Source: Escherichia phage DCP2
Direction: 5' to 3' (one strand)
Length of the DNA: 64,000 bases
Sequence record: OR780565.1
A program made the position numbers and the translations under genes. Of this stretch, positions 1 through 48,847 are shown in pieces. Below the pieces are notes generated by a model. It did no database searches, had not been told where the DNA came from, and saw only the letters and a program-made list of their open reading frames with translations. Each line of letters opens with the position of its first letter. Positions within the stretch are counted from its first letter, which is position 1.

Positions 1-2
1 TA

Positions 3-521
3 TTGGCCATTTCAATGATGGCACATAGCTCCGAGCATACTTTCAGTAATGTCCAACTCGATAACATGCGTTACGCGTATCAATTCGGGGAACAATTTTC
101 TAAGGATGGAAAATATAAAACACACAAAAACATCCATAAGAGCGGATTGGGTCATATAATGGCTGCTATTTTGTGGCAAGAAAGCTCTGCCGGAGTTAAT
201 TTAAAATCTAAACCAAAGCATCATGCCTATGGAATGTTCCAAAATTATTTGCCAACTATGCGAGCAAGAGTTAAGGAACTTGGTTATAATATGACCGATG
301 CCGAAATAAAAAGAATGTTGAATAAACGGTCCAATTCAGCTTCCTGGGCGTACATTGAACTTTCTTATTGGTTAAATATACATAAGGGTGATATAAGAAA
401 AGCAATATCATCTTATAATTCGGGATGGAATGTTAAAGCAGGTTCTAAATATGCTTCTGAAGTCCTAGAAAAGGCTAATTACCTTAAAAATAATAAACTT
501 TTGGAAATAGTAAATGACTAA
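3..521 (+). CDS. SLT-domain lytic transglycosylase-like protein, 5' partial (ORF open to window edge)
   Basis: ORF runs to the window start; motifs WQESS (catalytic Glu-Ser), GMFQ and AISSYNSG match the family-1 lytic transglycosylase signature. Confidence 0.6.
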   Translation: MAISMMAHSSEHTFSNVQLDNMRYAYQFGEQFSKDGKYKTHKNIHKSGLGHIMAAILWQESSAGVNLKSKPKHHAYGMFQNYLPTMRARVKELGYNMTDAEIKRMLNKRSNSASWAYIELSYWLNIHKGDIRKAISSYNSGWNVKAGSKYASEVLEKANYLKNNKLLEIVND

Positions 522-855
522 AATTTTGGTTTTATGTATAGGATTAATTTCATTTTCTGTGTTAGCAGATACATCATATACTGAAATTAGAGAGTATGTA
601 AACCGTACTGCAGCGGATTATTGCGGGAAAAATAAAGCATGCCAAGCTGAATTTGCGCAGAAATTAATATATGCATATAAAGACGGAGAAAGAGATAAAT
701 CAAGCAGATACAAAAACGATACATTATTAAAACGATATGCTAAAAAGTGGAATACCTTAGAATGTTCAGTTGCGGAGGAGAAAGATAAAGCCGCTTGTCA
801 TTCAATGGTTGACCGTTTGGTAGATTCTTATAATCGAGGATTGAGTACTAGATGA
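514..855 (+). CDS. Hypothetical secreted protein, 113 aa
   Basis: ATG overlaps upstream stop; N-terminal hydrophobic signal-like segment ILVLCIGLISFSVLA. Confidence 0.5.
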   Translation: MTKILVLCIGLISFSVLADTSYTEIREYVNRTAADYCGKNKACQAEFAQKLIYAYKDGERDKSSRYKNDTLLKRYAKKWNTLECSVAEEKDKAACHSMVDRLVDSYNRGLSTR

Positions 856-1319
856 TTGTAAAATATATCAAGGGCGATATTGTCGCCCTTTTCGCTGAAG
901 GTAAAAATATTGCGCATGGATGCAATTGTTTTCATACTATGGGTTCAGGCGTAGCGGGTCAATTAACCAAAGCTTTCCCTAAAATTTTGGAAGCTGATAA
1001 ATTACAGACTGAATGGGGTGATGTAACTAAACTCGGTTCTTACTCAGTCTATGAAAAATACTTTAGGACTCATAAAGCGTATTGCTTCAACCTTTATACT
1101 CAATTTCAACCAGGGCCAAATTTTGAGTATTCCGCTTTAATGAATTGTATGTTAGAATTAAATGAGTTTGGTGAAAATAAACTGATTAAACCTACAATCT
1201 ATATGCCTAGGATTGGTGCAGGCATAGGTAAAGGGAACTGGGATATTATTGAGGGGATTTTAGATACATATTCCTCTAAATTAGAAATTGTGATTGTTGA
1301 TTGGGAACCGTTATTATGA
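852..1319 (+). CDS. Macro-domain-like protein, 155 aa
   Basis: ATG overlaps upstream stop; N-terminal GDIV...HGCNC...GSGVAGQL and later RIGAGIGKGNW resemble macro domain ADP-ribose binding motifs. Confidence 0.55.
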   Translation: MIVKYIKGDIVALFAEGKNIAHGCNCFHTMGSGVAGQLTKAFPKILEADKLQTEWGDVTKLGSYSVYEKYFRTHKAYCFNLYTQFQPGPNFEYSALMNCMLELNEFGENKLIKPTIYMPRIGAGIGKGNWDIIEGILDTYSSKLEIVIVDWEPLL

Positions 1320-1528
1320 ATATACATTATCCACATCCATATGACCCAAAGAATAAGGTAGTAATTATTCGTCAATGGGAACGCATTTGCCGTACTAAAT
1401 GTCCAATTAATAGTCCGCATGATGTAGATAAAGACTACATTGGAACATTCGTTGAATATACCTTTATTGATAAGAAAGGTCGTAAACAGCATGTAGAAGA
1501 ATACTGCTTAAAGGTTACATGGTTATGA
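1316..1528 (+). CDS. Hypothetical protein, 70 aa
   Basis: ATG at 1316 overlaps upstream stop (ATGA); tracked ORF begins at an upstream TTG. Confidence 0.45.
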   Translation: MNIHYPHPYDPKNKVVIIRQWERICRTKCPINSPHDVDKDYIGTFVEYTFIDKKGRKQHVEEYCLKVTWL

Positions 1529-1731
1529 GCCAAACTAGTATTCTTAAAAATGCCCATTGTGAAAAGTGTAAATGGCCAGTTGTTTTTGCTTTATGCAACG
1601 ATGAAATGGCTTGTGATTTCGATTATTGGTGCTATTGTTCTAATAAAGGATGCATCAATCATAAAGGTGAAGGATTTTATTCGGGATTTTATCCTTATCC
1701 AGATTTCGTTAAAGAAGGTAAACCGAAATGA
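1519..1731 (+). CDS. Hypothetical Cys-rich protein, 70 aa
   Basis: Start overlaps upstream stop; nine Cys, possible metal binding. Confidence 0.5.
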   Translation: MVMSQTSILKNAHCEKCKWPVVFALCNDEMACDFDYWCYCSNKGCINHKGEGFYSGFYPYPDFVKEGKPK

Positions 1732-1901
1732 ATAGTTTTGAGTTACAGTATGAAGTGTTACGTGAGCTTGATAATTTAATTGAACTCGCTGTCAATAAAG
1801 GTTTTGCCATTGGAATCGGTCAAAAAGATACTGGTCATTTAACTATGGAAATATTTAAGCAAAAGCGAATTATTTTAAAACTCCTGGAAATTAATATATG
1901 A
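1728..1901 (+). CDS. Hypothetical protein, 57 aa
   Basis: ATG overlaps upstream stop; fills an otherwise non-coding gap in an operon-like array; below ORF-track cutoff. Confidence 0.4.
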   Translation: MNSFELQYEVLRELDNLIELAVNKGFAIGIGQKDTGHLTMEIFKQKRIILKLLEINI

Positions 1902-2083
1902 GTCTGAGTAAAGAACAAAAAGATAAATTGTTTGAGCTTATCCATGAACTTCTAGATGAGCATACAGAAGCAAACACCTTTTATGATGAATACGGCCCGC
2001 TATCTCCCGAACAGCAAGAAGAATTTGCTGATCGGTTTGATAAGAAAGAAAACGAATTAATAGCTTATGTGAATATGCTTTAA
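1898..2083 (+). CDS. Hypothetical acidic protein, 61 aa
   Basis: ATGA start/stop overlap with the upstream ORF. Confidence 0.5.
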   Translation: MSLSKEQKDKLFELIHELLDEHTEANTFYDEYGPLSPEQQEEFADRFDKKENELIAYVNML

Positions 2084-2092
2084 GAAGGTGAT

Positions 2093-2674
2093 ATGGCGAG
2101 TTTAATTTTTACTTACGCAGCAATGAATGCTGGAAAATCTGCTTCTCTTTTGACTGCTGCACATAATTATAAAGAACGCGGAATGGGTGTATTAGTTCTT
2201 AAGCCTGCTATTGATACTCGCGATTCTGTCTGTGAAGTCGTTTCTCGCATTGGAATTAAGCAGGAAGCGAATATTATTACGGATGATATGGATATTTTTG
2301 AGTTCTATAAATGGGCTGAAGCACAAAAAGATATTCATTGTGTATTTGTAGATGAAGCTCAGTTTTTAAAAACTGAACAGGTGCATCAATTAAGTCGAAT
2401 TGTTGATACATATAATGTTCCTGTTATGGCTTATGGGCTAAGGACTGATTTCGCTGGAAAATTATTTGAAGGTTCTAAAGAACTTTTGGCGATTGCAGAT
2501 AAACTTATTGAACTAAAGGCAGTTTGTCATTGTGGTAAAAAAGCTATTATGACAGCTCGATTAATGGAAGATGGAACACCAGTTAAAGAAGGTAATCAAA
2601 TCTGTATTGGTGATGAAATTTATGTTTCTTTGTGTAGAAAACATTGGAACGAATTAACTAAAAAGCTCGGTTAG
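2093..2674 (+). CDS. tk: Thymidine kinase
   Basis: 193 aa; P-loop NAGKS; matches T4 Tk length and sequence as recalled; SD aaggtgat. Confidence 0.95.
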   Translation: MASLIFTYAAMNAGKSASLLTAAHNYKERGMGVLVLKPAIDTRDSVCEVVSRIGIKQEANIITDDMDIFEFYKWAEAQKDIHCVFVDEAQFLKTEQVHQLSRIVDTYNVPVMAYGLRTDFAGKLFEGSKELLAIADKLIELKAVCHCGKKAIMTARLMEDGTPVKEGNQICIGDEIYVSLCRKHWNELTKKLG

Positions 2675-2716
2675 TGCAAAAGTTATAAATAGGTTTATCT
2701 AACTAAAGGGGTATAT

Positions 2717-2929
2717 ATGCTACAATTAACTGAAAAGCAACTTCGCAATCTTACTGTTCTTCAATTAGATGAAATTCGTAGGGAAGTTGGAAATATCATT
2801 TCAGCTTTGCGTCGAGAAGTATCACTCAACCAATCTCCGGCAGACTATACTAGATTGCGAAATTTTGAAAAATACCTTGATAAAGTTAAGGCCGTGCATC
2901 GGCATAAAGTAAATACAGGACAAAAATGA
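2717..2929 (+). CDS. Hypothetical protein, 70 aa
   Basis: ORF with SD aagggg; lies between tk and rI. Confidence 0.55.
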
Positions 2930-2941
2930 TAGGAGGCCTTT

Positions 2942-3235
2942 ATGGCCTTAAAAGCAACGGCACTATTTGCCATGCTAGGATTAGCGTTTGCTTTATCTCC
3001 ACCAATTGAAGCGAATGTCGATCCTCATTTTGATAAATTTATGGAATCTGGTATTAGACACGTTTATATGCTTTTTGAAAATAAAAGCGTAGAATCATCT
3101 GAACAGTTCTATAGTTTTATGCGAACGACTTATAAAAATGACCCGTGCTCTTCCGATTTTGAATGTATAGAGCGAGGCGCGGAGATGGCACAATCATACG
3201 CTAGAATTATGAACATTAAATTGGAGACTGAATGA
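2942..3235 (+). CDS. rI: Lysis inhibition regulator rI
   Basis: 97 aa with signal-anchor; near-identical to T4 RI as recalled; SD taggagg. Confidence 0.9.
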   Translation: MALKATALFAMLGLAFALSPPIEANVDPHFDKFMESGIRHVYMLFENKSVESSEQFYSFMRTTYKNDPCSSDFECIERGAEMAQSYARIMNIKLETE

Positions 3236-3618
3236 AATTCAGCGACTTTTCACAAAGTGGAAAACCTTCAAAGGCAGATGAATACTTAGGTTTATTAATG
3301 GCTGCACAAGCTTATTTTCATTCTGCGCATTTTGAAACTAAAAGTTATGCTAGACACAAAGCATACGATTTTATTTTCTCTGAGTTGCCAGATTTGATTG
3401 ATAAATTTGGTGAGCAATATTTGGGGTATTCTGGTAGAAAATACACGCCTTCTATTCCAGATGCCAGTAAACTTCCTACCGACACAATTAAAATGATTGA
3501 TCGCATACTAGACCAATCTAACAGCATTTATAAAGAAATGCCTCCAGCCATTCAAAGCACGATAGATGATATTACTGGGATGTTTTACCAGAGTAAATAT
3601 CTTCTTTCCCTCGAATAA
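3232..3618 (+). CDS. Hypothetical protein, 128 aa
   Basis: ATGA overlap with rI stop; followed by a terminator hairpin. Confidence 0.6.
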
Positions 3619-10221: not shown

Positions 10222-11109
10222 ATGTCAGTAGTAATTAATAATGTCAATGCAGTAATTAAATCTTTAGTTAATAAAAAATTAAATGAATGGACTGTACTTC
10301 GTCGTGGAGAGCCAGATAAATTTTTTCATAGATTTAACCCAACTTTGGATTTGAATGTTATTGACAGAGATGTTCATGCTGAAATTTTAGATAAATTTAA
10401 AGTTGATATTGGGTTTGGATTAGATAAACATTTGCAACGAACAAACGGATCTGGAATGGGTTTATCTAATCGCATCATGAAAGCCCTTAATAAAATTGGA
10501 GCGTTGTCTCGTATTAATGCGAGTGAAATCCTTCGCAATTATAATAAAGGATATGACCTTTATGGTCGACTAATGCCGAAATTATCATTTGACCAAATGA
10601 TTGCGGATTTGTGGGAAAATCAACGACGATTATTAGCATTAGGCGCTCGATTAGCTAAAGGTCTAGATAAACAAATGATTTTTAAGACCAATAATACAGA
10701 AGACCTTAAATGCTTTAAATTTAGTACTCGTGGAGATGATTATTACATCAGAGCTCGCTCTACAGATTATGTTAATATGGGGCATCATCTCTGTTTAGCT
10801 TTTGAAGTTTTAAAAGAAGCCGGAACATTAGAATATGTGTCTGGTGCTAAATGTCCGATTGGTTCAAATTGCATTTTAATTTATCGCCCAGATGAATCCA
10901 GTTCAACTAAATTACCTACAAAACCTGTACCAGTTCGCAGTAATGAAAAACATTCTGAACAAATTGCTTATTTTAATAAGCAGATTGAAGAGCTAAATAT
11001 TTCTATTCAGCAATATGATGATGAAATTTTCAGACTATCTGGATTGAGTAGTAAAGCTAAATCTGAGCGTGAAAAATTAATTAAAATCGTTGATTTACTT
11101 AAATCTTAA
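10222..11109 (+). CDS. Hypothetical protein with C-terminal coiled coil (tandem paralog 1 of 4), 295 aa
   Basis: ATG with SD gaggaaaat; C-terminal heptad-like region. Confidence 0.6.
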   Translation: MSVVINNVNAVIKSLVNKKLNEWTVLRRGEPDKFFHRFNPTLDLNVIDRDVHAEILDKFKVDIGFGLDKHLQRTNGSGMGLSNRIMKALNKIGALSRINASEILRNYNKGYDLYGRLMPKLSFDQMIADLWENQRRLLALGARLAKGLDKQMIFKTNNTEDLKCFKFSTRGDDYYIRARSTDYVNMGHHLCLAFEVLKEAGTLEYVSGAKCPIGSNCILIYRPDESSSTKLPTKPVPVRSNEKHSEQIAYFNKQIEELNISIQQYDDEIFRLSGLSSKAKSEREKLIKIVDLLKS

Positions 11110-11117
11110 GGAACACC

Positions 11118-12146
11118 ATGAAAACTCGTTCTCAAATTGAAGATATGGTTCGTAATGCCAGCTATACTCGTGATGTTATGACATTTTTGTGTGAAAATAA
11201 TTTAGACCCTGATAAAGTTAATCGTGTTATTCATCACTTTAAGTATACGAATAGCAGTGAATGGGTGCGTAATTTTAGTAAAGCAGGGTATATTACGCAA
11301 ATGACGGCTCGTGAGCAGCTCACCGATTTCTGTAAAACTATTGATTATAAAAATCCTTTGATTGTTCAAGGCGTTGGTCAAAGTAAGGTCGATTTATCAT
11401 CTGGATTTTTCAATCCAAATCATTATCGTATTGAATGGAGATTTATTGCTCTGTTCCGTAGACAATTAAAGCAAATTTTATCAACTGCGAGTCGATTAAA
11501 AGGTTCTGATATTAACTTAAAGAATCTGAAATTTGATGGTTATACTCTTCAGATGGAAGTAAGACCGTTAAAAGAAAATAATAGAACTGCACGAATTAGC
11601 TTTAAGCCTAATACTAAAAATTCTCTTTCAATTTGTGAATGTCTTAAATCACAGCTGACAGAAGCATTTAAGTATATGGATGTTGTTGCTGCTGTTCAAT
11701 CTAAGATTTTACCTCGTTTTGAGCGAAATTGGGAACATACAACAACATATGAACTTGATATGATCGTTTCATTTAAATATGAATTTTTGAGAAAGGATGA
11801 AATTGTTCAAGAGAAAAAGCAGGAAGTGCAAGATACCTTAAATTTAAATTTATCCAATTACTTATCAAACGATCCTAAATGTTGGATGTACAGTTCAAGT
11901 AACATAGATGCATGTAAACTTAATAAAGTGAGTTTTCTTCCTACTGAAAATTCAAATTTTAAACCTGTAGAAAAATGGCACGCTGATGCGATTGAAAAGT
12001 CTCTTAAGGCAGTAGATGATGAACTCGTTAAAGCGACCAATGAAATGCTAGAAGCTGAAAAGGCGTTAGAACAAGCTCAGTCAAGGGTTCAAAATCTGAC
12101 AAAGCAACGTTCTAAACTGAACAATGCACTAAATGCACTGAACTAG
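11118..12146 (+). CDS. Hypothetical protein with C-terminal coiled coil (paralog 2 of 4), 342 aa
   Basis: SD aagga; C-terminal coiled-coil-like segment ending NALNALN. Confidence 0.6.
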   Translation: MKTRSQIEDMVRNASYTRDVMTFLCENNLDPDKVNRVIHHFKYTNSSEWVRNFSKAGYITQMTAREQLTDFCKTIDYKNPLIVQGVGQSKVDLSSGFFNPNHYRIEWRFIALFRRQLKQILSTASRLKGSDINLKNLKFDGYTLQMEVRPLKENNRTARISFKPNTKNSLSICECLKSQLTEAFKYMDVVAAVQSKILPRFERNWEHTTTYELDMIVSFKYEFLRKDEIVQEKKQEVQDTLNLNLSNYLSNDPKCWMYSSSNIDACKLNKVSFLPTENSNFKPVEKWHADAIEKSLKAVDDELVKATNEMLEAEKALEQAQSRVQNLTKQRSKLNNALNALN

Positions 12147-12177
12147 TTTACTTTACCACAAGGATGTGGTATAATGT
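12146..12177 (+). promoter_or_regulatory. T4-type early promoter
   Basis: GTTTAC then ggatgtggtataatg; same 32-bp element recurs at 56535. Confidence 0.65.
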
Positions 12178-12203
12178 TCTTACTTTCTACTGAGGAGATT
12201 AAT

Positions 12204-13205
12204 ATGACTCGTAACGAATATATCAAATCATTCAATAGTGTTATTGATGATAAAGTTAAACCTATGTCTAGTCAGAATAGCGTTATTTCCATTATCAATC
12301 AATGGCTCAATAATATTGATGTAAGCATTGTTTCTTCCAGCAAATTTATTCATGAAGTTCATAAAATTTCTAGTCGCGAAGATAAAGATGATATTAAGGA
12401 AACCTTTAAAGGTTCTCGTCTTCTTTCATATTTAGTTAATCAGGATATTCTTGGTAAATTTGGGAAAGAAATTAAACGAACTAAAGATGTAGTAGGATAT
12501 AATTGGTTCGGTGATGTTAATTCTTATCATCTTAATAATAAAGAAGACCCTGAGAATATTTTTACTCGTCGTTGGATTAGTAATTTCAGACTTTTCAAAG
12601 GACAGATTCTAAAATCAGCTTCTAAATTATGTTATGGCGATTATCGTCAAATTCATCCTTTGGCTTCTGATATGATTATCATAAAAGAATATGAACTTGA
12701 TAAAAATAAAGTATCTATTTTTGTGAATTATGGATTTTTTACACCAGAAACTAACCAAAAGAATATTAATAAATTTTTCTCAATTGCTAGCACTATAACT
12801 CGTCAATTAGAGACCGCATTACTTTGTATGGAAACAGTAGAAAATATTCATACATATCCTTTTAAGAATATATGCGGTTGGGAAGGATATAAACTCGTAA
12901 TTAGCCTTCGTGAAGTGAAATGTGCTTATTCACCTACTGATAAAGAAATTTACCAACAAAAATGTGATGAAATTGTGAATACTCCTAAAGAAGAAACTAC
13001 CCTTGAGGAACTAATGGAATGTCTTGATGATTCACCTGAACCGATAGAAATTCGTCCAGAAGTTATTGCATTAGAAAAAGCTTATAAAGAAGCTCTAGAA
13101 ATTTCTAATAAAGCGCAGAAAGAATATGAACAGGCTAAAAGGATTTGGGAAGAATCTGTTAATCGCCTGGATCGTCTTGAACAAGCTTTACAGTTAATTA
13201 AGTAA
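12204..13205 (+). CDS. Hypothetical protein with C-terminal coiled coil (paralog 3 of 4), 333 aa
   Basis: ATG with SD gaggag; the tracked start at 12174 lies inside the promoter -10. Confidence 0.6.
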   Translation: MTRNEYIKSFNSVIDDKVKPMSSQNSVISIINQWLNNIDVSIVSSSKFIHEVHKISSREDKDDIKETFKGSRLLSYLVNQDILGKFGKEIKRTKDVVGYNWFGDVNSYHLNNKEDPENIFTRRWISNFRLFKGQILKSASKLCYGDYRQIHPLASDMIIIKEYELDKNKVSIFVNYGFFTPETNQKNINKFFSIASTITRQLETALLCMETVENIHTYPFKNICGWEGYKLVISLREVKCAYSPTDKEIYQQKCDEIVNTPKEETTLEELMECLDDSPEPIEIRPEVIALEKAYKEALEISNKAQKEYEQAKRIWEESVNRLDRLEQALQLIK

Positions 13206-13257
13206 TTTAAAGCCAAGGATGGCTCGGAGTATAAATCATTAACCAAGTGAGAAGAAC

Positions 13258-14187
13258 ATGAAAACTCGTAAACATTATATTGATTATTTTGATAGTCTTA
13301 TTACTAAACACCGTAATTATCAGATTGGGCACAGAGCAGTAATCAATAATATTCTTCGTGATTTCTTTCAATATGTTGGCCAGGAAAATCATATCTGTAA
13401 AGATACTCAAAACGCTTATTCTCATTCGTTAGGCAATTTGCTTCAATGGTTTAAACGTTCTCGTCTGTTATCTTCTACTGTAGCTAGTGATAACATTAAA
13501 AACTTTATGAAGCCGAGCTTCATTAAATCTGCGACATCTATAACCGATTTGGTTGAATTTACTATTGTTAACGATGTTAAAAAGACCCATTTGGCTGATT
13601 GGTTATCTACCATTCCTGAAACTAAATTTGCTGATAAATTCGCTTGTCAATTCAATGACCAAGTGAATATGCTTTTTAAGCATGCTCGTAAACTATTTAC
13701 CGCGGGCGATGACCGTACAAATACAGTTCATGTTAAGGACTGGGTTATTGCTGATGAAGTAACACACAAGCCAGGTGGTTCATCAGTATTAATTAATATC
13801 CAGGTTCCTTATTATTACTCACGTAATCTCGGCACCATGACAGCTAGAGAAATTAATAAGCATAACAAAACTATTCGTTCGTTGTCTTATAAACTCTGCA
13901 CGATGGTGGAGATGATGGACGTAGTGGAAATGTATGACGAAACCGAAGATAATGGTTCAATGTTATACAGTTCACGCATTCTAATTAAACTGAAGAACCC
14001 TAATACATATAAGCCAGTTGTAAAAGAACCTAAAGTAGAAAAGATTGATAACTTGCGCGAAGAACGTGAATATCTCAATGCTCGTTTGATTGAAGTTGAA
14101 GTCCAGATTGCCGAACATACCAAATTGTTAAAAGCTCTTAATGCAAAAGCAAATGGTTTACGTAATGCTATTGAGGTATTGAAATGA
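13258..14187 (+). CDS. Hypothetical protein with C-terminal coiled coil (paralog 4 of 4), 309 aa
   Basis: SD gtgagaag; C-terminal coiled-coil-like region. Confidence 0.6.
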   Translation: MKTRKHYIDYFDSLITKHRNYQIGHRAVINNILRDFFQYVGQENHICKDTQNAYSHSLGNLLQWFKRSRLLSSTVASDNIKNFMKPSFIKSATSITDLVEFTIVNDVKKTHLADWLSTIPETKFADKFACQFNDQVNMLFKHARKLFTAGDDRTNTVHVKDWVIADEVTHKPGGSSVLINIQVPYYYSRNLGTMTAREINKHNKTIRSLSYKLCTMVEMMDVVEMYDETEDNGSMLYSSRILIKLKNPNTYKPVVKEPKVEKIDNLREEREYLNARLIEVEVQIAEHTKLLKALNAKANGLRNAIEVLK

Positions 14188-14501
14188 AAAAGCGTCTATT
14201 AGAAGATATTGCAGCTTCAAGTAATTCCAGTCTAATTAAAATCATTATGGCTGGTGAAGAAGACGATCTGGAAATGCGTGGAAAGATTCATGGCTGTGAC
14301 GATCTAGACTTTAAACCTCCTGCTTGGGATGCCATTATGGTTATGGTTGAACGCCGCGAAAGGGCTTCTAAGAATGTTCCGAACTGCCCAAAATGTGGTA
14401 CTGAACAGGTCCAATTGATTAACTGGCGTAAACCAGAGCTTGAATATAAATGTCGTCATTGCAAACACCGATTTAACCGAGAAGAAAATGACCAAGCGTA
14501 A
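14184..14501 (+). CDS. Zinc-ribbon protein, 105 aa
   Basis: ATGA overlap; CPKCG ... CRHCKH Cys4 pair. Confidence 0.55.
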
Positions 14502-14730
14502 AGAATATATGGAGGCTGCTGAAAAGGCAGTCCGTGAATTAGCAATAGCTTATTATAATGAACATGGTAAATTTCCTGATAGATACAGCGTGCTTAAATC
14601 TGCTTTAACTCGTTCATATAAAAATATGCTATCAGAAGTAAGTGATATTATATACAAACATAAAGAACAAACGGGCCAAAGTCTTGATTACGACGAGACT
14701 TTTAAACAAGTACTAGGAATTAAGGAATAA
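14488..14730 (+). CDS. Hypothetical protein, about 80 aa
   Basis: ATG overlapping the 3' end of the upstream gene; start uncertain (alternatives 14440, 14509). Confidence 0.45.
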
Positions 14731-14731
14731 T

Positions 14732-14995
14732 ATGTTTAAAGTATATGGTTATGATAGCAACATCCACAAATGTGTGTATTGCGATAATGCAAAACGTCTT
14801 TTGACTGTGAAGAAACAGCCGTTTGAATTTATCAACATTATGCCGGAAAAAGGTGTTTTTGATGATGAGAAAATCGCTGAGCTTCTGACTAAACTGGGTC
14901 GTGATACTCAAATCGGATTGACGATGCCTCAGGTATTTGCTCCTGACGGAAGTCATATTGGTGGATTTGACCAATTGCGGGAATACTTTAAATGA
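14732..14995 (+). CDS. nrdC: Glutaredoxin/thioredoxin NrdC
   Basis: 87 aa; CVYC active site; matches T4 NrdC as recalled. Confidence 0.95.
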   Translation: MFKVYGYDSNIHKCVYCDNAKRLLTVKKQPFEFINIMPEKGVFDDEKIAELLTKLGRDTQIGLTMPQVFAPDGSHIGGFDQLREYFK

Positions 14996-15207
14996 TGCTT
15001 GAAGGAACTGATTATATCCATGACTACCGCGGAAGCGCGGTATATGTAGGTGATGAGGTTGCAGTTTATTATGGATATGGAACTTTGATGACAGCAAAGG
15101 TTATTCAAATTAAAAATAATCGTGCTAAACTCGAAGTTTATTATTCTAATGGTGAAAAGTCTATTTCTAAGTGGAAATACGGCGATTGTATGGTCAAACT
15201 GGGGTAA
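14992..15207 (+). CDS. Hypothetical protein, 71 aa
   Basis: ATGATG overlap with nrdC stop. Confidence 0.55.
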   Translation: MMLEGTDYIHDYRGSAVYVGDEVAVYYGYGTLMTAKVIQIKNNRAKLEVYYSNGEKSISKWKYGDCMVKLG

Positions 15208-44557: not shown

Positions 44558-44895
44558 TGTTTATCTTTAATTGGTTTAAAAGTTTCTTTACGGATTTTTT
44601 CTCTACAACTCCCGGAGAAGGTGTAGTTCCTATTTCAAATGACTACCTTCCTTTAACTGTAGTTGAATATGTTTATATGGGAGATGGAACAGTAGAAGCA
44701 GTTACTATGACTTATGAAGAAGCCCAGGAATATTATAAAAATCCTTGGCGTTGGTCAACACCTACATCATCTAATACGCAGAATACACAGTCTAGTTCTG
44801 ATTCATATGATACTAATGTTCCTGTTCATGTGTGGACGGGCGATTCATGTGGAAGTTCTTGTGATTCTAGTTGTTCATCTACATCTTGTGATTGA
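44557..44895 (+). CDS. Hypothetical protein with Cys/Ser-rich C-terminus, 112 aa
   Basis: TAATG overlap; SD aaagagg; C-terminal [17 protein letters not shown]. Confidence 0.5.
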
Positions 44896-44903
44896 GGAAA
44901 ATT

Positions 44904-45389
44904 ATGGAAGCGATTTTGTTTGAAATGTATATTAGCAGTAATAGTATGTCGTTTGCTAAAGACGTTCCAATTACCGTAGCAGTAATGATTGATAAGGGTT
45001 ATTGTGACCCAATGTATCTCGTAGAAAATTTCGTTTCAATGCCAGTTCCAGAAGATGCTGAAATAAAACTTAAAAAGATTGGTATCATTGAAACTGTACC
45101 AAATATTCCATTTAGAGCAATTGAAGCATTTACTAAATCCGAATACATTAATGTTAGCGCAGAACAATATAATGATAAACCTTTATCTTTCTATTCGTAC
45201 GATTCATTATATAGTTGGAAAATAGATAAAGGAAATAAATTTATAATTGCGAGTGAAGACGCTTTATCATATTTTATTTCTTCTGTATGGAATAGTTTAC
45301 ATCCAAATTTGCTAAAAATTCATGAATTTGACGATGCTTCTACTGTCGTTTTAGGTAAAACAAATGAAAGTTCTGAAGAAAATGTTTGA
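44904..45389 (+). CDS. mrh: Mrh-like protein (modulator of host heat-shock sigma)
   Basis: 161 aa from ATG with SD gaggaaaatt; length and position fit T4 mrh. Confidence 0.65.
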
Positions 45390-45567
45390 ATGGTTCAATA
45401 GACCAAACTCAATGTACATTGATGATGGTTGGGTTGAACAAGCAAATAAAGAAATGCAGAACGAATCGGAAGAATGGATGAAATCAATGATTAGTGCTGA
45501 GAAAGAAAAGAAATTAGAACGCTCAGCGCTTAAATTGATGAGAGATATCTATGGGGATAAATCATGA
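45364..45567 (+). CDS. Hypothetical protein, about 67 aa
   Basis: Overlaps mrh 3' end; start uncertain (45364 or 45382). Confidence 0.4.
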
Positions 45568-45728
45568 ACAGAGATATGACGCTAGAAGAGGCCAAGGCTA
45601 AAGCAAATGAAGCACTGGATTTGCTTCTTAAAATTGGCAGTAAAATGATGGAAGAAAATGAGAAATATATCCAGGAAAACAAAATTCCTGACGGCCCATT
45701 AGTAGGCAAAAGGAAATCACATGATTGA
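45564..45728 (+). CDS. Hypothetical protein, 54 aa
   Basis: ATGA overlap with upstream ORF. Confidence 0.4.
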
Positions 45729-46191
45729 AGTAGCAAAACATTATTCAATAGAATTTATGTCTAAAGAAGGTAAATCAGTAAATGCACTTGATAAAAAATG
45801 CTCATTAATTATTCCTTTAGCAGAAAATCCGGATCTTTTAATTAAAGATATAAAAGAAAGAAAATATCCAGAAAATGTTATTCTAATTATAAAGCATACT
45901 GAAGATATTTTACAGAATACTGATTCACCGTTTTCTTCTTCTGAAGCTTTAACTATTAAAGGCTATAAAAGAGCTCATGAATATGGTCTTTTTGACCTGT
46001 TTGAAGATGATAAAGTTAAATTAGCGAGTCAACCTTTTAAAAGTAAAACATTCATTATTGAAGATATTAAAGATATAAATGCATTTGTTAAGATGGTCTG
46101 GGCTCATTTTGATGTTGGACTACGCTGGAGAATGTCTGAAGAAGAAAGAAAGATTATTGAAGCTAATCGTCAATTTGGTTTTTATCGCTAG
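45721..46191 (+). CDS. Hypothetical protein, 156 aa
   Basis: ATG overlapping upstream 3' end. Confidence 0.55.
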
Positions 46192-46199
46192 GAATTAGT

Positions 46200-46382
46200 A
46201 TGGATTTATTTGAGATGTTAGAAGATAATCATTCTACGAATATCCAGAATGATTCTAGTGATTATAAGAAAGAATACCGTATAGTATTACAGAATTATGG
46301 AATTGAAGCCCCAGATGCTCTTCTAGAAGAACTAGCTTCATACCATCTTGACCCTCCGCCCTGGGCTCCCTGGGCAAAATAA
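46200..46382 (+). CDS. Hypothetical protein, 60 aa
   Basis: ATG after ggaattagt. Confidence 0.5.
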   Translation: MDLFEMLEDNHSTNIQNDSSDYKKEYRIVLQNYGIEAPDALLEELASYHLDPPPWAPWAK

Positions 46383-46393
46383 TTCAAAAAGTT

Positions 46394-46426
46394 GTTTACT
46401 TTCCTTCCTAACAATGATATGATAGC
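46394..46426 (+). promoter_or_regulatory. T4-type early promoter
   Basis: GTTTAC then caatgatatgatag. Confidence 0.6.
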
Positions 46427-46449
46427 TTCTGAAGTATATGGAGGCTATC

Positions 46450-47073
46450 ATGATTATTAATCTTGCAGATGTTGAACAGTTATCTATAAAAGCTGAAAGT
46501 GTCGATTTTCAATATGATATGTATAAAAAAGTCTGTGAAAAATTTACTGACTTTGAACAATCAGTTCTTTGGCAATGTATGGAAGCCAAAAAGAATGAAG
46601 CTCTTCATCGGCAGTTGAATAAAATCGTTAAAAAGCATTTAACTAAATCACCTTATCAGCTATATCGTGGTATATCAAAATCGACAAAAGAGCTCATTAA
46701 AGATTTACAAGTTGGAGAAGTGTTTTCAACGAATAGAGTAGATTCATTTACTACTAGTTTGCACACAGCGTGCGGTTTTTCTTATGTTGAGTATTTCACT
46801 GAAATAATATTTCGCTTAAAAACTGATAAAGCTTTTAATTACTCTGACCATATCAGCGATATTATACTTTCTTCTCCTAATACTGAGTTTAAGTATACAT
46901 ATGAAGATACTGATGGATTAGATTCAGAACGTACTGATAACTTAATGATGATTGTGCGTGAACAAGAATGGATGATTCCAATTGGAAAGTATAGAATAAC
47001 TTCTATTTCAAAAGAAAAATTACACGATTCATTTGGAACATTTAAAGTGTATGATATTGAGGTAGTTGAATGA
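46450..47073 (+). CDS. modB: ADP-ribosyltransferase ModB
   Basis: 207 aa from ATG with SD ggagg; R-S-ExE pattern (YRGIS, STN, EQEWMIP). Confidence 0.8.
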   Translation: MIINLADVEQLSIKAESVDFQYDMYKKVCEKFTDFEQSVLWQCMEAKKNEALHRQLNKIVKKHLTKSPYQLYRGISKSTKELIKDLQVGEVFSTNRVDSFTTSLHTACGFSYVEYFTEIIFRLKTDKAFNYSDHISDIILSSPNTEFKYTYEDTDGLDSERTDNLMMIVREQEWMIPIGKYRITSISKEKLHDSFGTFKVYDIEVVE

Positions 47074-47672
47074 AATATTCAGCAATGCAATTAAAAGATT
47101 TTAAAATCAAATCAATGGATGCATCGGTGCGTGCTTCTATTCGTGAAGAATTACTTTCTGAAGGATTTAATTTATCTGAAATTGAACTTTTAATTCATTG
47201 TATTACTAATAAGCCAGACGACCACTCTTGGTTAAATGAAATAATCAAATCTCGTTTGGTTCCAAACGATAAACCTCTTTGGAGAGGTGTTCCAGTTGAG
47301 ACTAAGCAGGTGTTAAATCAAGGAATTGATATTATTACATTTGATAAAGTAGTATCAGCTTCATATGATAAAAATATAGCTCTACATTTTGCTTCTGGAT
47401 TAGAATACAATACACAAGTTATTTTTGAATTCAAAGCTCCTATGGTATTTAATTTTCAGGAGTATGCTATAAAAGCTCTACGTTGTAAAGAATATAGTCC
47501 GAGTTTTAAATTTCCAGATAGCCATCGCTATCGTAATATGGAATTAGTTTCAGATGAACAAGAAGTAATGATACCAGCTGGAAGTGTATTTAGAATTGCG
47601 GATAGATATGAGTATAAAAAGTATTCAACATACACTATCTATACTCTTGATTTTGAAGGATTTAATCTATAA
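47070..47672 (+). CDS. modA: ADP-ribosyltransferase ModA
   Basis: 200 aa; ATGA coupling to modB; R-S-ExE pattern (LWRGV, SASYD, EQEVMIP). Confidence 0.8.
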   Translation: MKYSAMQLKDFKIKSMDASVRASIREELLSEGFNLSEIELLIHCITNKPDDHSWLNEIIKSRLVPNDKPLWRGVPVETKQVLNQGIDIITFDKVVSASYDKNIALHFASGLEYNTQVIFEFKAPMVFNFQEYAIKALRCKEYSPSFKFPDSHRYRNMELVSDEQEVMIPAGSVFRIADRYEYKKYSTYTIYTLDFEGFNL

Positions 47673-47727
47673 TGGAAGGACTTAGATTCATTATACCATG
47701 AAAGTTTTAAAGCATTTTTCATAAAGT

Positions 47728-47761
47728 TGTTTACAAGCTGAAGTAAAAATGATATAGTATA
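47728..47761 (+). promoter_or_regulatory. T4-type early promoter
   Basis: GTTTAC then aatgatatagtat. Confidence 0.65.
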
Positions 47762-47787
47762 AGTAGTTAACCGTCCGTGAGAAAAAT

Positions 47788-48534
47788 ATGAAACTGTCTA
47801 AAAATCAAATTCGTAAAATTACACGTCGTTTAGAGCATACTCAGGCATCAGCTAAAAGACGTTCTAAAGATTTTAACTTAGACTTCAATTACATTAAGAA
47901 CATTTTAGATCAGAAAGTTTGCGCTTACTCAGGAGAACCTTTTGATAATCGTATTGAAGGAGAGAAATTATCGTTAGAACGTTTTGATAATAACGTTGGA
48001 TACATTAAAGGGAATGTTATTGCAGTAAAGAAAAAGTATAATACATTTCGTTCTGATTATACTTTAGAAGAGTTGATTGAAAAGCGTGATTTATTTGCTT
48101 TGCGAATTGGTCGTTCATCTGCGAAAAAAGTTCATAAACTAAATTTAGATGAAAAGAAATGGGCTAAAATCAAAAAGACTTATAATCAAATTAAAGCTAT
48201 ACAGAAAAAACGCGAAAACCGAATTGAGCACATTTCTCAGCTTTCTAAATCAAAACAAACTTCTGACGTTAAGCTAACGATTATAGCACTTAAAGCTCGT
48301 ATTGATGGTTCTCGTATAGCAGAAGGCGCTGAAGTTGTTAAATTGAACGTTCTTCTTAAAGGCTCGGATTGGAAAACTGTGAAAAAGTTGTCAGAAGCAG
48401 AAATGCAATATGATATGTGTGATAAAATTATTCAAGGTGTAGAGCGGTATCAAAACTTGTCTTTTATTGATAAACTTAAACTGAAAAGAGGATACCCGCT
48501 AAATTGTTCAATTTTTAAACTTATCCGAGGATAA
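47788..48534 (+). CDS. srd: Srd-like protein (sigma-related early protein)
   Basis: 248 aa; position between modA and dda fits T4 srd. Confidence 0.65.
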   Translation: MKLSKNQIRKITRRLEHTQASAKRRSKDFNLDFNYIKNILDQKVCAYSGEPFDNRIEGEKLSLERFDNNVGYIKGNVIAVKKKYNTFRSDYTLEELIEKRDLFALRIGRSSAKKVHKLNLDEKKWAKIKKTYNQIKAIQKKRENRIEHISQLSKSKQTSDVKLTIIALKARIDGSRIAEGAEVVKLNVLLKGSDWKTVKKLSEAEMQYDMCDKIIQGVERYQNLSFIDKLKLKRGYPLNCSIFKLIRG

Positions 48535-48535
48535 T

Positions 48536-48847
48536 ATGTTTTATGTATATGCGATAGTGTATAGAGATAAAGATGGATTTGCGGTGCCTGTTCCTCTTGA
48601 TGAACATCGTCCTGCTATATTTTTTGAAAGGGAGATTGCTGATAAAGTATTTACAACTCTTAAAGAGCAGTATCAACTAGCTTTAGGTATGGGAATTCCG
48701 AGATTAGTCGAGACTCCACGCAAGTTTTGGTTTAATAAAATAGAAGTTAAACATGTTAAGCCTGATGTAGACACACAAAGATTATATCGGCGAATTTTAG
48801 ATACTGGGCGTATTGTTAGTATACCAATTGCAGGGAATTTACGATGA
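48536..48847 (+). CDS. Hypothetical protein, 103 aa
   Basis: SD gaggataat. Confidence 0.55.
   Translation: MFYVYAIVYRDKDGFAVPVPLDEHRPAIFFEREIADKVFTTLKEQYQLALGMGIPRLVETPRKFWFNKIEVKHVKPDVDTQRLYRRILDTGRIVSIPIAGNLR

What the first reader, a model, noticed from the sequence alone, without database searches (positions are those of the whole stretch)
852..1319. Macro-domain-like protein upstream of tk
The 155-aa product has GDIV...HGCNC...GSGVAGQL near the N-terminus and RIGAGIGKGNW later, resembling the ADP-ribose-binding loops of macro domains. The same phage encodes ADP-ribosyltransferases ModA and ModB in this window, so a macro domain could reverse or read ADP-ribosylation, or degrade an ADP-ribose-derived defence signal.
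Basis: partly seen in the sequence, partly recalled or inferred. Interest (0 to 1): 0.5.

Follow-up and report, generated by a model that had tools for sequence, protein, structure and literature searches.

The report
T4 Tk.4/AdfM macrodomain, anti-DarTG2 factor

Summary

The domain was annotated as "A1pp phosphatase" by 2006. A 2025 preprint found tk.4 as the only T4 transposon hit under DarTG2. A clean knockout sensitised T4, and the gene was renamed adfM. T4 AdfM has not been assayed biochemically.

What I add:
- Tk.4 lacks the catalytic Lys of DarG and TARG1. It has Gln84 instead, present in 260/260 aligned relatives.
- Gln84 aligns with Gln85 of Streptomyces SCO6735. SCO6735 is a Lys-less macrodomain shown to hydrolyse thymidine-linked ADP-ribose on DNA, and its Q85A mutant is dead.
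- Tk.4 lacks the longer mobile loop of SCO6735, so it forms a separate, largely phage-borne clade.
- It is not a close relative of PhiKZ "AdfM", which is the Lys type.
- One relative fuses this macro type to NADAR, the anti-DarT1 domain.

Reversing ModA/ModB marks is unlikely, because those are on arginine. Verdict: already known, low interest.

The parts
852..1319 (+). tk.4 / adfM coding sequence (155 aa plus stop), a single macro domain
836..840 (+). Shine-Dalgarno-like GAGGA, 11 nt upstream of the ATG
   Evidence: Read from the sequence. The old T4 record X04567 annotates a ribosome binding site under the match.
852..855 (+). ATGA overlap: tk.4 start codon with the stop codon of vs (514-855), suggesting translational coupling
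   Evidence: No sigma-70-like site above chance and no MotA box was found directly upstream. I therefore infer the gene is read as part of a polycistronic unit.
915..929 (+). H22-G-C-N25-C26 motif. N25 is the macro-domain Asn (DarG 'VNxVG'; PhiKZ AdfM N23). H22 aligns with Poa1p H23, TARG1 H32 and SCO6735 H24.
   Evidence: N25 260/261, C26 260/261 and H22 250/261 across family members. Alignments.
939..959 (+). Loop 1 (M30-G-S-G33-V-A35-G36), the first Gly-rich phosphate-binding loop
   Evidence: G33 and A35 are invariant in 79/79 and 260-261/261. The loop aligns with GxG[VI]A of DarG, TARG1 and SCO6735.
996..998 (+). D49, a clade-specific near-invariant Asp of unknown role
   Evidence: 260/261. 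DarG, BT1257 and SCO6735 have Tyr at the aligned position. Poa1p has Asp.
1095..1103 (+). Y82-T83-Q84. Q84 occupies the position of the catalytic Lys of DarG (K80) and TARG1 (K84), and of the essential Gln85 of SCO6735.
   Evidence: hhalign against Taq DarG. Profile alignment to TARG1 and BT1257. hhalign against SCO6735, prob 98.5. Q in 260/260 aligned members. SCO6735 Q85A/E are inactive.
1206..1241 (+). Loop 2 (P119-R-I-G-A-G-I-G-K-G-N-W130), the second Gly-rich loop. G126 sits where TARG1 has the catalytic D125.
   Evidence: P119, I121, G122 and G124 are invariant.
1316..1319 (+). ATGA overlap: tk.4 stop codon with the tk.3 start codon (tk.3 = 1316-1528, DUF7202)

Best explanation
The ORF is the T4 gene tk.4, recently renamed adfM (anti-DarT factor, macrodomain). 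It encodes a stand-alone 155-aa macrodomain of the ALC1-like class (TARG1/DarG/Poa1p/SCO6735) and has no toxin partner. It acts as an 'orphan antitoxin'. When the host DarTG2 system releases DarT2, which ADP-ribosylates thymidines in single-stranded TNTC motifs and stalls replication, Tk.4 binds the ADP-ribose through its two Gly-rich loops and Asn25 and hydrolyses the thymidine-ADP-ribose bond. This restores replicable DNA and releases free ADP-ribose. Catalysis cannot follow the lysine route of DarG and TARG1, because position 84 is an invariant Gln. It most likely follows the route proposed for SCO6735, in which the equivalent Gln positions the substrate and a backbone-held water starts the reaction. 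Basis of each step: identity, fold and motifs are shown here; the anti-DarTG2 role is shown genetically in a preprint; hydrolysis of dT-ADPr by Tk.4 and the role of Gln84 are inferred by homology.
Against: No biochemical assay of T4 Tk.4 was found in the library searched, and no catalytic mutant has been tested. The genetic evidence comes from one preprint and one DarTG2 system. Tk.4 lacks the catalytic Lys of DarG and TARG1, the Asp125 of TARG1, and the extended mobile loop and Lys34/Lys89 of SCO6735, so no characterised active site is fully reproduced. Catalytically dead SCO6735, DarG and TARG1 still inhibit DarT in vitro, which that paper calls interaction-inhibition, so protection need not be purely enzymatic. 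An earlier comparative analysis argued that most phage macro domains target small ADPr derivatives.
Confidence: 0.75

Rival explanations
1. Tk.4 counters DarTG2 mainly without catalysis. It would bind and block DarT2, or shield ADP-ribosylated sites, as a stoichiometric inhibitor.
For: Catalytically dead SCO6735 Q85A, DarG K80A and TARG1 K84A all inhibit DarT activity in vitro, and SCO6735 does so most strongly. Tk.4 lacks the known catalytic Lys.
Against: The ADP-ribose-binding loops, Asn25 and Gln84 are near-invariant over hundreds of divergent relatives, which is the pattern of an enzyme active site. Tk.4 has no counterpart of the C-terminal DarT-binding domain of DarG: it is 155 aa and scores 30 bits against the 250-bit DarG cut-off. 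Toxin binders are usually toxin-specific and evolve fast, as described for AdfA and AdfB.
Confidence: 0.1
2. Its main role is housekeeping of small ADP-ribose derivatives: ADP-ribose-1''-phosphate phosphatase or O-acetyl-ADP-ribose deacetylase, as in the historical 'A1pp phosphatase' annotation, or destruction of ADPr-based immune signals. The DarTG2 phenotype would then be a side activity.
Against: The only phenotype reported for tk.4 is DarTG2-specific. The 'phosphatase' label is a domain-name transfer, not an assay. T4's own RNA-repair route (Pnkp/Rnl1) does not use the Tpt1/KptA step that makes ADPr-1''-phosphate; this rests on established knowledge and was not tested here.
Confidence: 0.1
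3. Tk.4 reverses or reads the phage's own ADP-ribosylation by Alt, ModA and ModB.
For: The same genome encodes ModA and ModB (window 46438-47672).
Against: ModA modifies Arg265 of the RNA polymerase alpha subunits, and Alt also modifies arginines. The characterised ALC1-like macrodomains act on Glu/Asp-linked and thymidine-linked ADPr. Arg-ADPr is removed by the unrelated ARH/DraG fold (established knowledge). The genes are 45 kb apart with no operon link. Tk.4 homologues occur in 2,846 phage records across many genera, but I did not check how many of those phages have Mod or Alt.
Confidence: 0.03

Closest known systems
Phage T4 Tk.4 = AdfM (NP_049723.1; ORF 60.5 of X04567)
   Same: Identical protein, 155/155 aa. 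Same position between vs and tk.3. Same ATGA-coupled arrangement.
   Different: Nothing at the protein level. The window is a T4 relative rather than T4 itself: 94-97.6% nucleotide identity here, and the small ORFs between tk.3 and tk differ.
Streptomyces coelicolor SCO6735 (PDB 5e3b) and Bacteroides BT1257 (PDB 2fg1/2afc), Gln-type ALC1-like macrodomains
   Different: About 22-29% identity. Tk.4 lacks their five-residue-longer mobile loop (gap) and SCO6735's Lys34 and Lys89 (Ser32 aligns with Lys34). It has the clade-specific Asp49 and Tyr82. It is phage-borne rather than chromosomal.
DarG antitoxin macrodomain (T. aquaticus 5m31/5m3e, M. tuberculosis 5m3i) and PhiKZ gp104 'AdfM'
   Different: DarG and PhiKZ gp104 carry the catalytic Lys in FPTK, where Tk.4 has Gln. 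DarG has a C-terminal DarT-binding domain and an adjacent darT gene; Tk.4 has neither. Tk.4 against PhiKZ gp104 gives only a 23-residue BLASTP match, E 0.005. The shared name AdfM therefore covers two different macrodomain clades.
Human TARG1 / C6orf130 (4j5r, 4j5s)
   Same: Best Foldseek hit (2.3e-10). Shares the H at position 22, both loops and a similar size. TARG1 also removes DarT-type thymidine ADPr.
   Different: The TARG1 catalytic dyad Lys84/Asp125 corresponds to Gln84/Gly126 in Tk.4.
Yeast Poa1p, an ADP-ribose-1''-phosphate phosphatase (6lfq-6lfu)
   Different: Poa1p has Ser where Tk.4 has Gln84. Its substrate is a tRNA-splicing by-product that is not known to arise in T4 infection.
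T4 AdfN (gp30.3, NADAR domain)
   Same: Same strategy in the same phage: an orphan antitoxin-like ADP-ribosylglycohydrolase that counters a DarTG system. The two domain types are fused in one natural protein.
   Different: Unrelated fold. AdfN acts on guanine-ADPr from DarT1 and does not counter DarTG2.

Membership tests
Macro domain (Pfam PF01661) | Profile score above the curated gathering threshold | tested here: met
   27.7 bits against a cut-off of 22, covering profile positions 2-113 of 118.
Macro domain (Pfam PF01661) | Alpha/beta macro fold | tested here: met
Macro domain (Pfam PF01661) | Two Gly-rich ADP-ribose/diphosphate-binding loops and the conserved Asn | tested here: met
   Loop 1 MGSGVAG (G33 and A35 invariant), loop 2 PRIGAGIGKG (P119, I121, G122 and G124 invariant), N25 in 260/261.
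ALC1-like macrodomain class (TARG1 / DarG / Poa1p / SCO6735) | Closest structural and sequence relatives are members of this class | tested here: met
DarG antitoxin (NCBIfam NF048014; type II TA DarTG2) | Full-length equivalog score, that is, macro plus the C-terminal DarT-binding domain | tested here: not met
   30.3 bits against a cut-off of 250. Only positions 2-146 of the 338-position model are matched, and the protein is 155 aa.
DarG antitoxin (NCBIfam NF048014; type II TA DarTG2) | Catalytic lysine (Taq DarG K80, motif FPTK) | tested here: not met
   Gln84 aligns with K80. Gln is present in 260/260 family members.
DarG antitoxin (NCBIfam NF048014; type II TA DarTG2) | Adjacent darT toxin gene | tested here: not met
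   The neighbours are vs.1 (SLT), vs, tk.3 (DUF7202), a phage zinc-binding ORF, an unknown ORF, DUF7438 and tk.
SCO6735/BT1257 subclass of ALC1-like macrodomains | Gln at the position of the DarG/TARG1 catalytic Lys (essential in SCO6735) | tested here: met
   Q84 aligns with SCO6735 Q85 (hhalign prob 98.5) and with the Gln of BT1257.
SCO6735/BT1257 subclass of ALC1-like macrodomains | Mobile loop five residues longer than in DarG/TARG1, stated to be characteristic of the subclass | tested here: not met
   The hhalign shows a five-residue gap in Tk.4 right after Q84-F-Q-P, opposite SCO6735 'HGMKTGSKG'.
AdfM (anti-DarT factor, macrodomain), a functional class | Loss of the gene sensitises the phage to DarTG2 | not testable with these tools
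   Reported for T4 tk.4, an identical protein, in bioRxiv 10.1101/2025.11.20.689424. Consistent with this, DarTG2-sensitive T5 has no homologue.
AdfM (anti-DarT factor, macrodomain), a functional class | Removes DarT2-made ADP-ribose from thymidine in ssDNA | not testable with these tools
   Shown for PhiKZ gp104 and SCO6735. I found no such assay for Tk.4.
Poa1p-type ADP-ribose-1''-phosphate phosphatase | His23/Ser30 active-site residues, the positions mutated in PDB 6lfs/6lft, and phosphatase activity | tested here: inconclusive
   H22 aligns with Poa1p H23 and T29 with S30 (mutant names). Activity cannot be tested here.

The most novel reading that the evidence does not exclude
Tk.4 would represent a third, largely phage-borne catalytic type of ALC1-like macrodomain. 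Its signature is H-G-C-N-C, Asp49 and Y-T-Q84, with Gln in place of Lys but without the long mobile loop of SCO6735. Its chemistry and substrate range would differ from both DarG and SCO6735. For example, it might be a broad 'eraser' that also handles other nucleic-acid or small-molecule ADP-ribose adducts made by defence systems, or a dual hydrolase and DarT2 binder. About 1,200 50%-identity clusters match at E <= 1e-30 and 2,846 phage records carry a homologue, so this could be among the commonest anti-defence enzymes of large lytic phages.
Probability: 0.2. Interest if true: 0.4.

Novelty: already known. Interest (0 to 1): 0.12.

Why it matters
The gene illustrates a general phage tactic: carry a copy of the antitoxin's enzymatic domain, without the toxin, to undo a toxin-antitoxin defence. 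T4 does this twice, with AdfN against DarTG1 and Tk.4/AdfM against DarTG2. Both the domain call and the function are already in the literature, so the finding adds little. The small point of value here concerns mechanism. Tk.4 is not a DarG-like lysine enzyme. It is a Gln-type macrodomain whose closest biochemical precedent is SCO6735, and the name 'AdfM' currently covers two unrelated macrodomain clades (T4 and PhiKZ). This points to specific mutants to test (Q84, N25, H22, D49) and cautions against transferring DarG mechanism or inhibitors to the T4-type enzyme.

Tried and rejected
1. I looked for a dedicated promoter. The sigma-70-like scan of 1-3300 gave 13 sites against 14.7 expected. No MotA-box middle promoter and no late TATAAATA lie upstream of 852. 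I conclude the gene is read through from upstream, but transcription was not resolved.

2. The 8-bp hairpin at 870-890 was flagged as terminator-like on the minus strand. As RNA it folds no better than shuffles (z = -1.42, 18 of 200 shuffles as good), so I treat it as unremarkable.

3. I looked for bacterial members of the Tk.4 clade next to a DarT toxin, to test for direct descent from DarG. The two homologues labelled as bacterial MAG proteins that I looked up (P0072, P0118) sit on T4-like phage contigs with Rnl1, PNKP, dCMP deaminase and a Dda-like helicase. A longer homologue (P0087) lies among unannotated genes. No DarT neighbour was seen.

4. I first suspected that the missing catalytic Lys argued against hydrolase activity. 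I dropped this after finding the SCO6735 study.

5. The Pfam hit to ThsA_Macro appears only in the fusion protein P0259 and only just above its cut-off (26.5 bits against 25). I do not take it as evidence for a Thoeris link.

6. I could not measure distances in the AF2 model, for example from D49 to the active site, because model coordinates are not exposed to the scripting tool.

Full report
**Observation.** The ORF finder lists 852..1319 on the + strand, starting with ATG and encoding 155 aa. The start codon overlaps the stop of the upstream gene (ATGA at 852-855). The stop overlaps the next start (ATGA at 1316-1319). Thymidine kinase lies at 2093-2674 (Pfam TK 1.7e-60), so "upstream of tk" is correct, with four small ORFs in between. 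The T4 modA/modB region maps to window 44583-48573 at 94% identity. There are ORFs of the right size at 46438-47073 (modB) and 47070-47672 (modA).

**Identity.** The 2.2-kb region is 99.8% identical to many Tequatrovirus genomes. In those records the gene is variously called "macro domain protein", "Poa1p-like family protein" or "phosphatase". The protein is 155/155 identical to T4 Tk.4, NP_049723.1, annotated "phosphatase; contains A1pp phosphatase motif". It was first sequenced as ORF 60.5 of X04567. The window itself is a T4 relative, not T4: it shows 94-97.6% nucleotide identity here, and the stretch 1529-2093 has no nucleotide match in the T4 tk region.

**Is it a macro domain?** Yes.
- Pfam Macro scores 27.7 bits against a cut-off of 22, and PHROG 335 scores 1.3e-65.
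- PDB sequence hits include BT1257 (1.3e-9), Poa1p, DarG and TARG1.
- A profile of 79 relatives raises these to 1.3e-17 (BT1257), 2e-15 (TARG1), 5e-14 (Poa1p, SCO6735) and 8e-14 (Mtb DarG).
- The AlphaFold model is confident, with pLDDT 95.9 and pTM 0.91.
- Foldseek puts TARG1, Poa1p, BT1257 and DarG first.

This places the protein in the ALC1-like class. Both Gly-rich loops and the macro Asn are conserved: G33, A35, P119, I121, G122 and G124 are invariant, and N25 is present in 260/261 members.

**What is already known.** The A1pp/macro match of tk.4 orthologues was reported in 2006 (PMC1524935). A 2025 paper on AdfN (T4 gp30.3, a NADAR domain) showed that T4 lacking adfA and adfN stays resistant to DarTG2, and predicted a further factor (PMC11825919). 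The HIDEN-SEQ preprint (bioRxiv 10.1101/2025.11.20.689424) infected DarTG2 cells with a T4 transposon library. [quoted passage not shown] Enzymatic removal of ADP-ribose from DNA was proposed "analogous to AdfN" but not tested. Independently, a Cell Reports 2026 paper named PhiKZ gp104 "AdfM" and showed that it removes DarT2-made ADP-ribose from a TNTC oligonucleotide, with N23A reducing activity (PMC13309987). A 2026 preprint detects T2 Tk.4 in the infected-cell proteome and finds its mRNA paired with the host sRNA ArcZ, without an effect on protein level.

**What I add on mechanism.** DarG and TARG1 depend on a lysine (K80 and K84), and TARG1 also on D125. Three alignments place Tk.4 Gln84 at that lysine position and Gly126 at the TARG1 D125 position:
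- the profile-profile alignment to Taq DarG;
- the profile alignment to TARG1;
- an hmmalign of 261 family members with the reference sequences.

Gln84 is present in 260 of 260 aligned relatives. Tyr82, Asp49, Asn25 and Cys26 are each present in 260, and His22 in 250. This looked like an argument against hydrolase activity until I found the SCO6735 study (PMC9411070). SCO6735 and BT1257 are ALC1-like macrodomains with Gln85 in place of the lysine. SCO6735 removes thymidine-linked ADP-ribose faster than DarG or TARG1 and rescues E. coli from DarT. It has no activity on guanine-ADPr, and it is inactivated by Q85A or Q85E. The authors propose a mechanism initiated by a water molecule, with Gln positioning the substrate.

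The hhalign of the Tk.4 family against SCO6735 (prob 98.5) aligns Q84 with Q85 and H22-x-C24-N25 with H24-V25-C26-N27. The same alignment shows that Tk.4 lacks the five-residue-longer mobile loop that the authors call characteristic of the SCO6735 subclass. Ser32 replaces SCO6735 Lys34. Tk.4 is therefore a Gln-type enzyme, but a clade of its own.

By contrast, PhiKZ gp104 is a plain DarG-type protein: it matches Mtb DarG at 9.4e-25 with the FPTK lysine conserved. It shares only a 23-residue BLASTP match with Tk.4 (E 0.005). The two "AdfM" proteins are analogues within one fold class, not orthologues.

**Distribution and context.**
- tblastn finds homologues in 2,846 of 50,697 phage records across Escherichia, Klebsiella, Salmonella, Pseudomonas, Vibrio, Acinetobacter and other hosts.
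- The exhaustive profile search finds 1,198 50%-identity clusters at E <= 1e-30 and 8,932 at E <= 1e-10.
- The two homologues labelled as bacterial MAG proteins that I looked up lie on T4-like phage contigs.
- No DarT gene neighbours the window gene, and the protein fails the full-length DarG model (30 bits against 250). It is an orphan.
- One relative (P0259, 472 aa) fuses a Tk.4-type macro to NADAR and DUF4326. This joins in one chain the two domain types that T4 uses against DarT2 and DarT1. Another relative fuses the macro to NUDIX.
- T5, used as the DarTG2-sensitive control in the preprint, has no credible Tk.4-family ORF in 1-112,000. The best score is 8.9 bits, against 216.6 bits for the window gene under the same procedure. 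The remaining 9.75 kb of T5 is the right terminal repeat, which the record annotates as identical to the left one.

**Rival explanations.**
- A non-catalytic block of DarT2 is possible as a contribution, because dead SCO6735, DarG and TARG1 still inhibit DarT in vitro. The active-site-like conservation pattern argues for catalysis.
- The historical "phosphatase" reading rests on a domain name. Poa1p is structurally close and shares H-x-C-N-C, and some distant homologues sit beside NAD-salvage genes. A small-molecule side activity cannot be excluded.
- Reversal of ModA/ModB marks is unlikely. The marks described for ModA and Alt are on arginine, whereas characterised ALC1-like macrodomains act on Glu/Asp- and thymidine-linked ADPr.

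**Verdict.** Its domain has been annotated for two decades and its anti-DarTG2 role was reported in 2025. Novelty: already known. Interest is low. The only fresh points are the Gln-type active site, the SCO6735 precedent, and the non-orthology with PhiKZ AdfM. These refine the mechanism and suggest specific mutants to test.

Noticed in passing
window 1519-2083: The three small ORFs between tk.3 and tk have no blastn match to the T4 tk.3-tk interval. They are 1519-1731 (Cys-rich, Pfam Phage_zn_bind 2.6e-29), 1728-1901 (no family) and 1898-2083 (DUF7438); the Pfam results are. This looks like a mosaic replacement of T4 tk.2/tk.1 in this T4 relative. All three are joined by overlapping start and stop codons.
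   Followed up: partly
L007 6268-7686 and L008 8001-9419 (protein P0259): A 472-aa protein fuses a Tk.4-type (Gln) macro domain to a NADAR domain and DUF4326. These are the two domain types that T4 uses separately against DarT2 and DarT1. It lies on metagenomic contigs of mostly unannotated genes plus a DnaJ gene, and the host or virus is unknown.
   Followed up: partly
protein P0232 (247 aa): A Tk.4-type macro domain is fused to a NUDIX domain (Pfam 3.8e-13). This suggests that release of ADP-ribose is coupled to its breakdown.
   Followed up: no
phage hits H38 (Acinetobacter phage vB_AbaM_B09_Aci02-2) and H46 (Vibrio phage Gary): Distant Tk.4 homologues (about 35% identity) lie next to nicotinamide phosphoribosyltransferase and ribose-phosphate pyrophosphokinase genes. 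This hints at a link between some phage macro domains and NAD+ salvage.
   Followed up: no
L002 41-2397; L003 6001-8941: Homologues deposited as bacterial MAG proteins (Bacilli, Culicoidibacterales) sit on T4-like phage contigs. In L002 the macro gene follows a DUF4326 gene and a T4-type RNA ligase 1, and in both loci it lies a few kb from a PNKP gene. So phage contigs are binned into MAGs, and the macro gene may be associated with RNA-repair genes.
   Followed up: partly
window 870-890: A perfect 8-bp stem (AAGGGCGA / TCGCCCTT) lies inside the first 40 nt of the tk.4 coding region. The scan flags it as terminator-like on the minus strand. As RNA it is not more stable than shuffles (z -1.42).
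   Followed up: yes
window 514-855 (vs) and 3-521 (vs.1): The gene just upstream, vs (valyl-tRNA synthetase modifier), is translationally coupled to tk.4. The HIDEN-SEQ preprint reports it as the most strongly depleted T4 gene in minimal medium. vs.1 carries an SLT transglycosylase domain.
   Followed up: no
window 46438-47672: modB (211 aa) and modA (200 aa) are present as overlapping + strand ORFs, followed by srd at 47788-48534. The assignment is by 94% nucleotide identity to T4 11000-15000. They lie about 45 kb from tk.4.
   Followed up: partly
literature: The name AdfM has been given independently to T4 Tk.4 (Gln-type) and to PhiKZ gp104 (DarG-like, Lys-type). The two share only a 23-residue BLASTP match, so the shared name could mislead annotation transfer.
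   Followed up: yes
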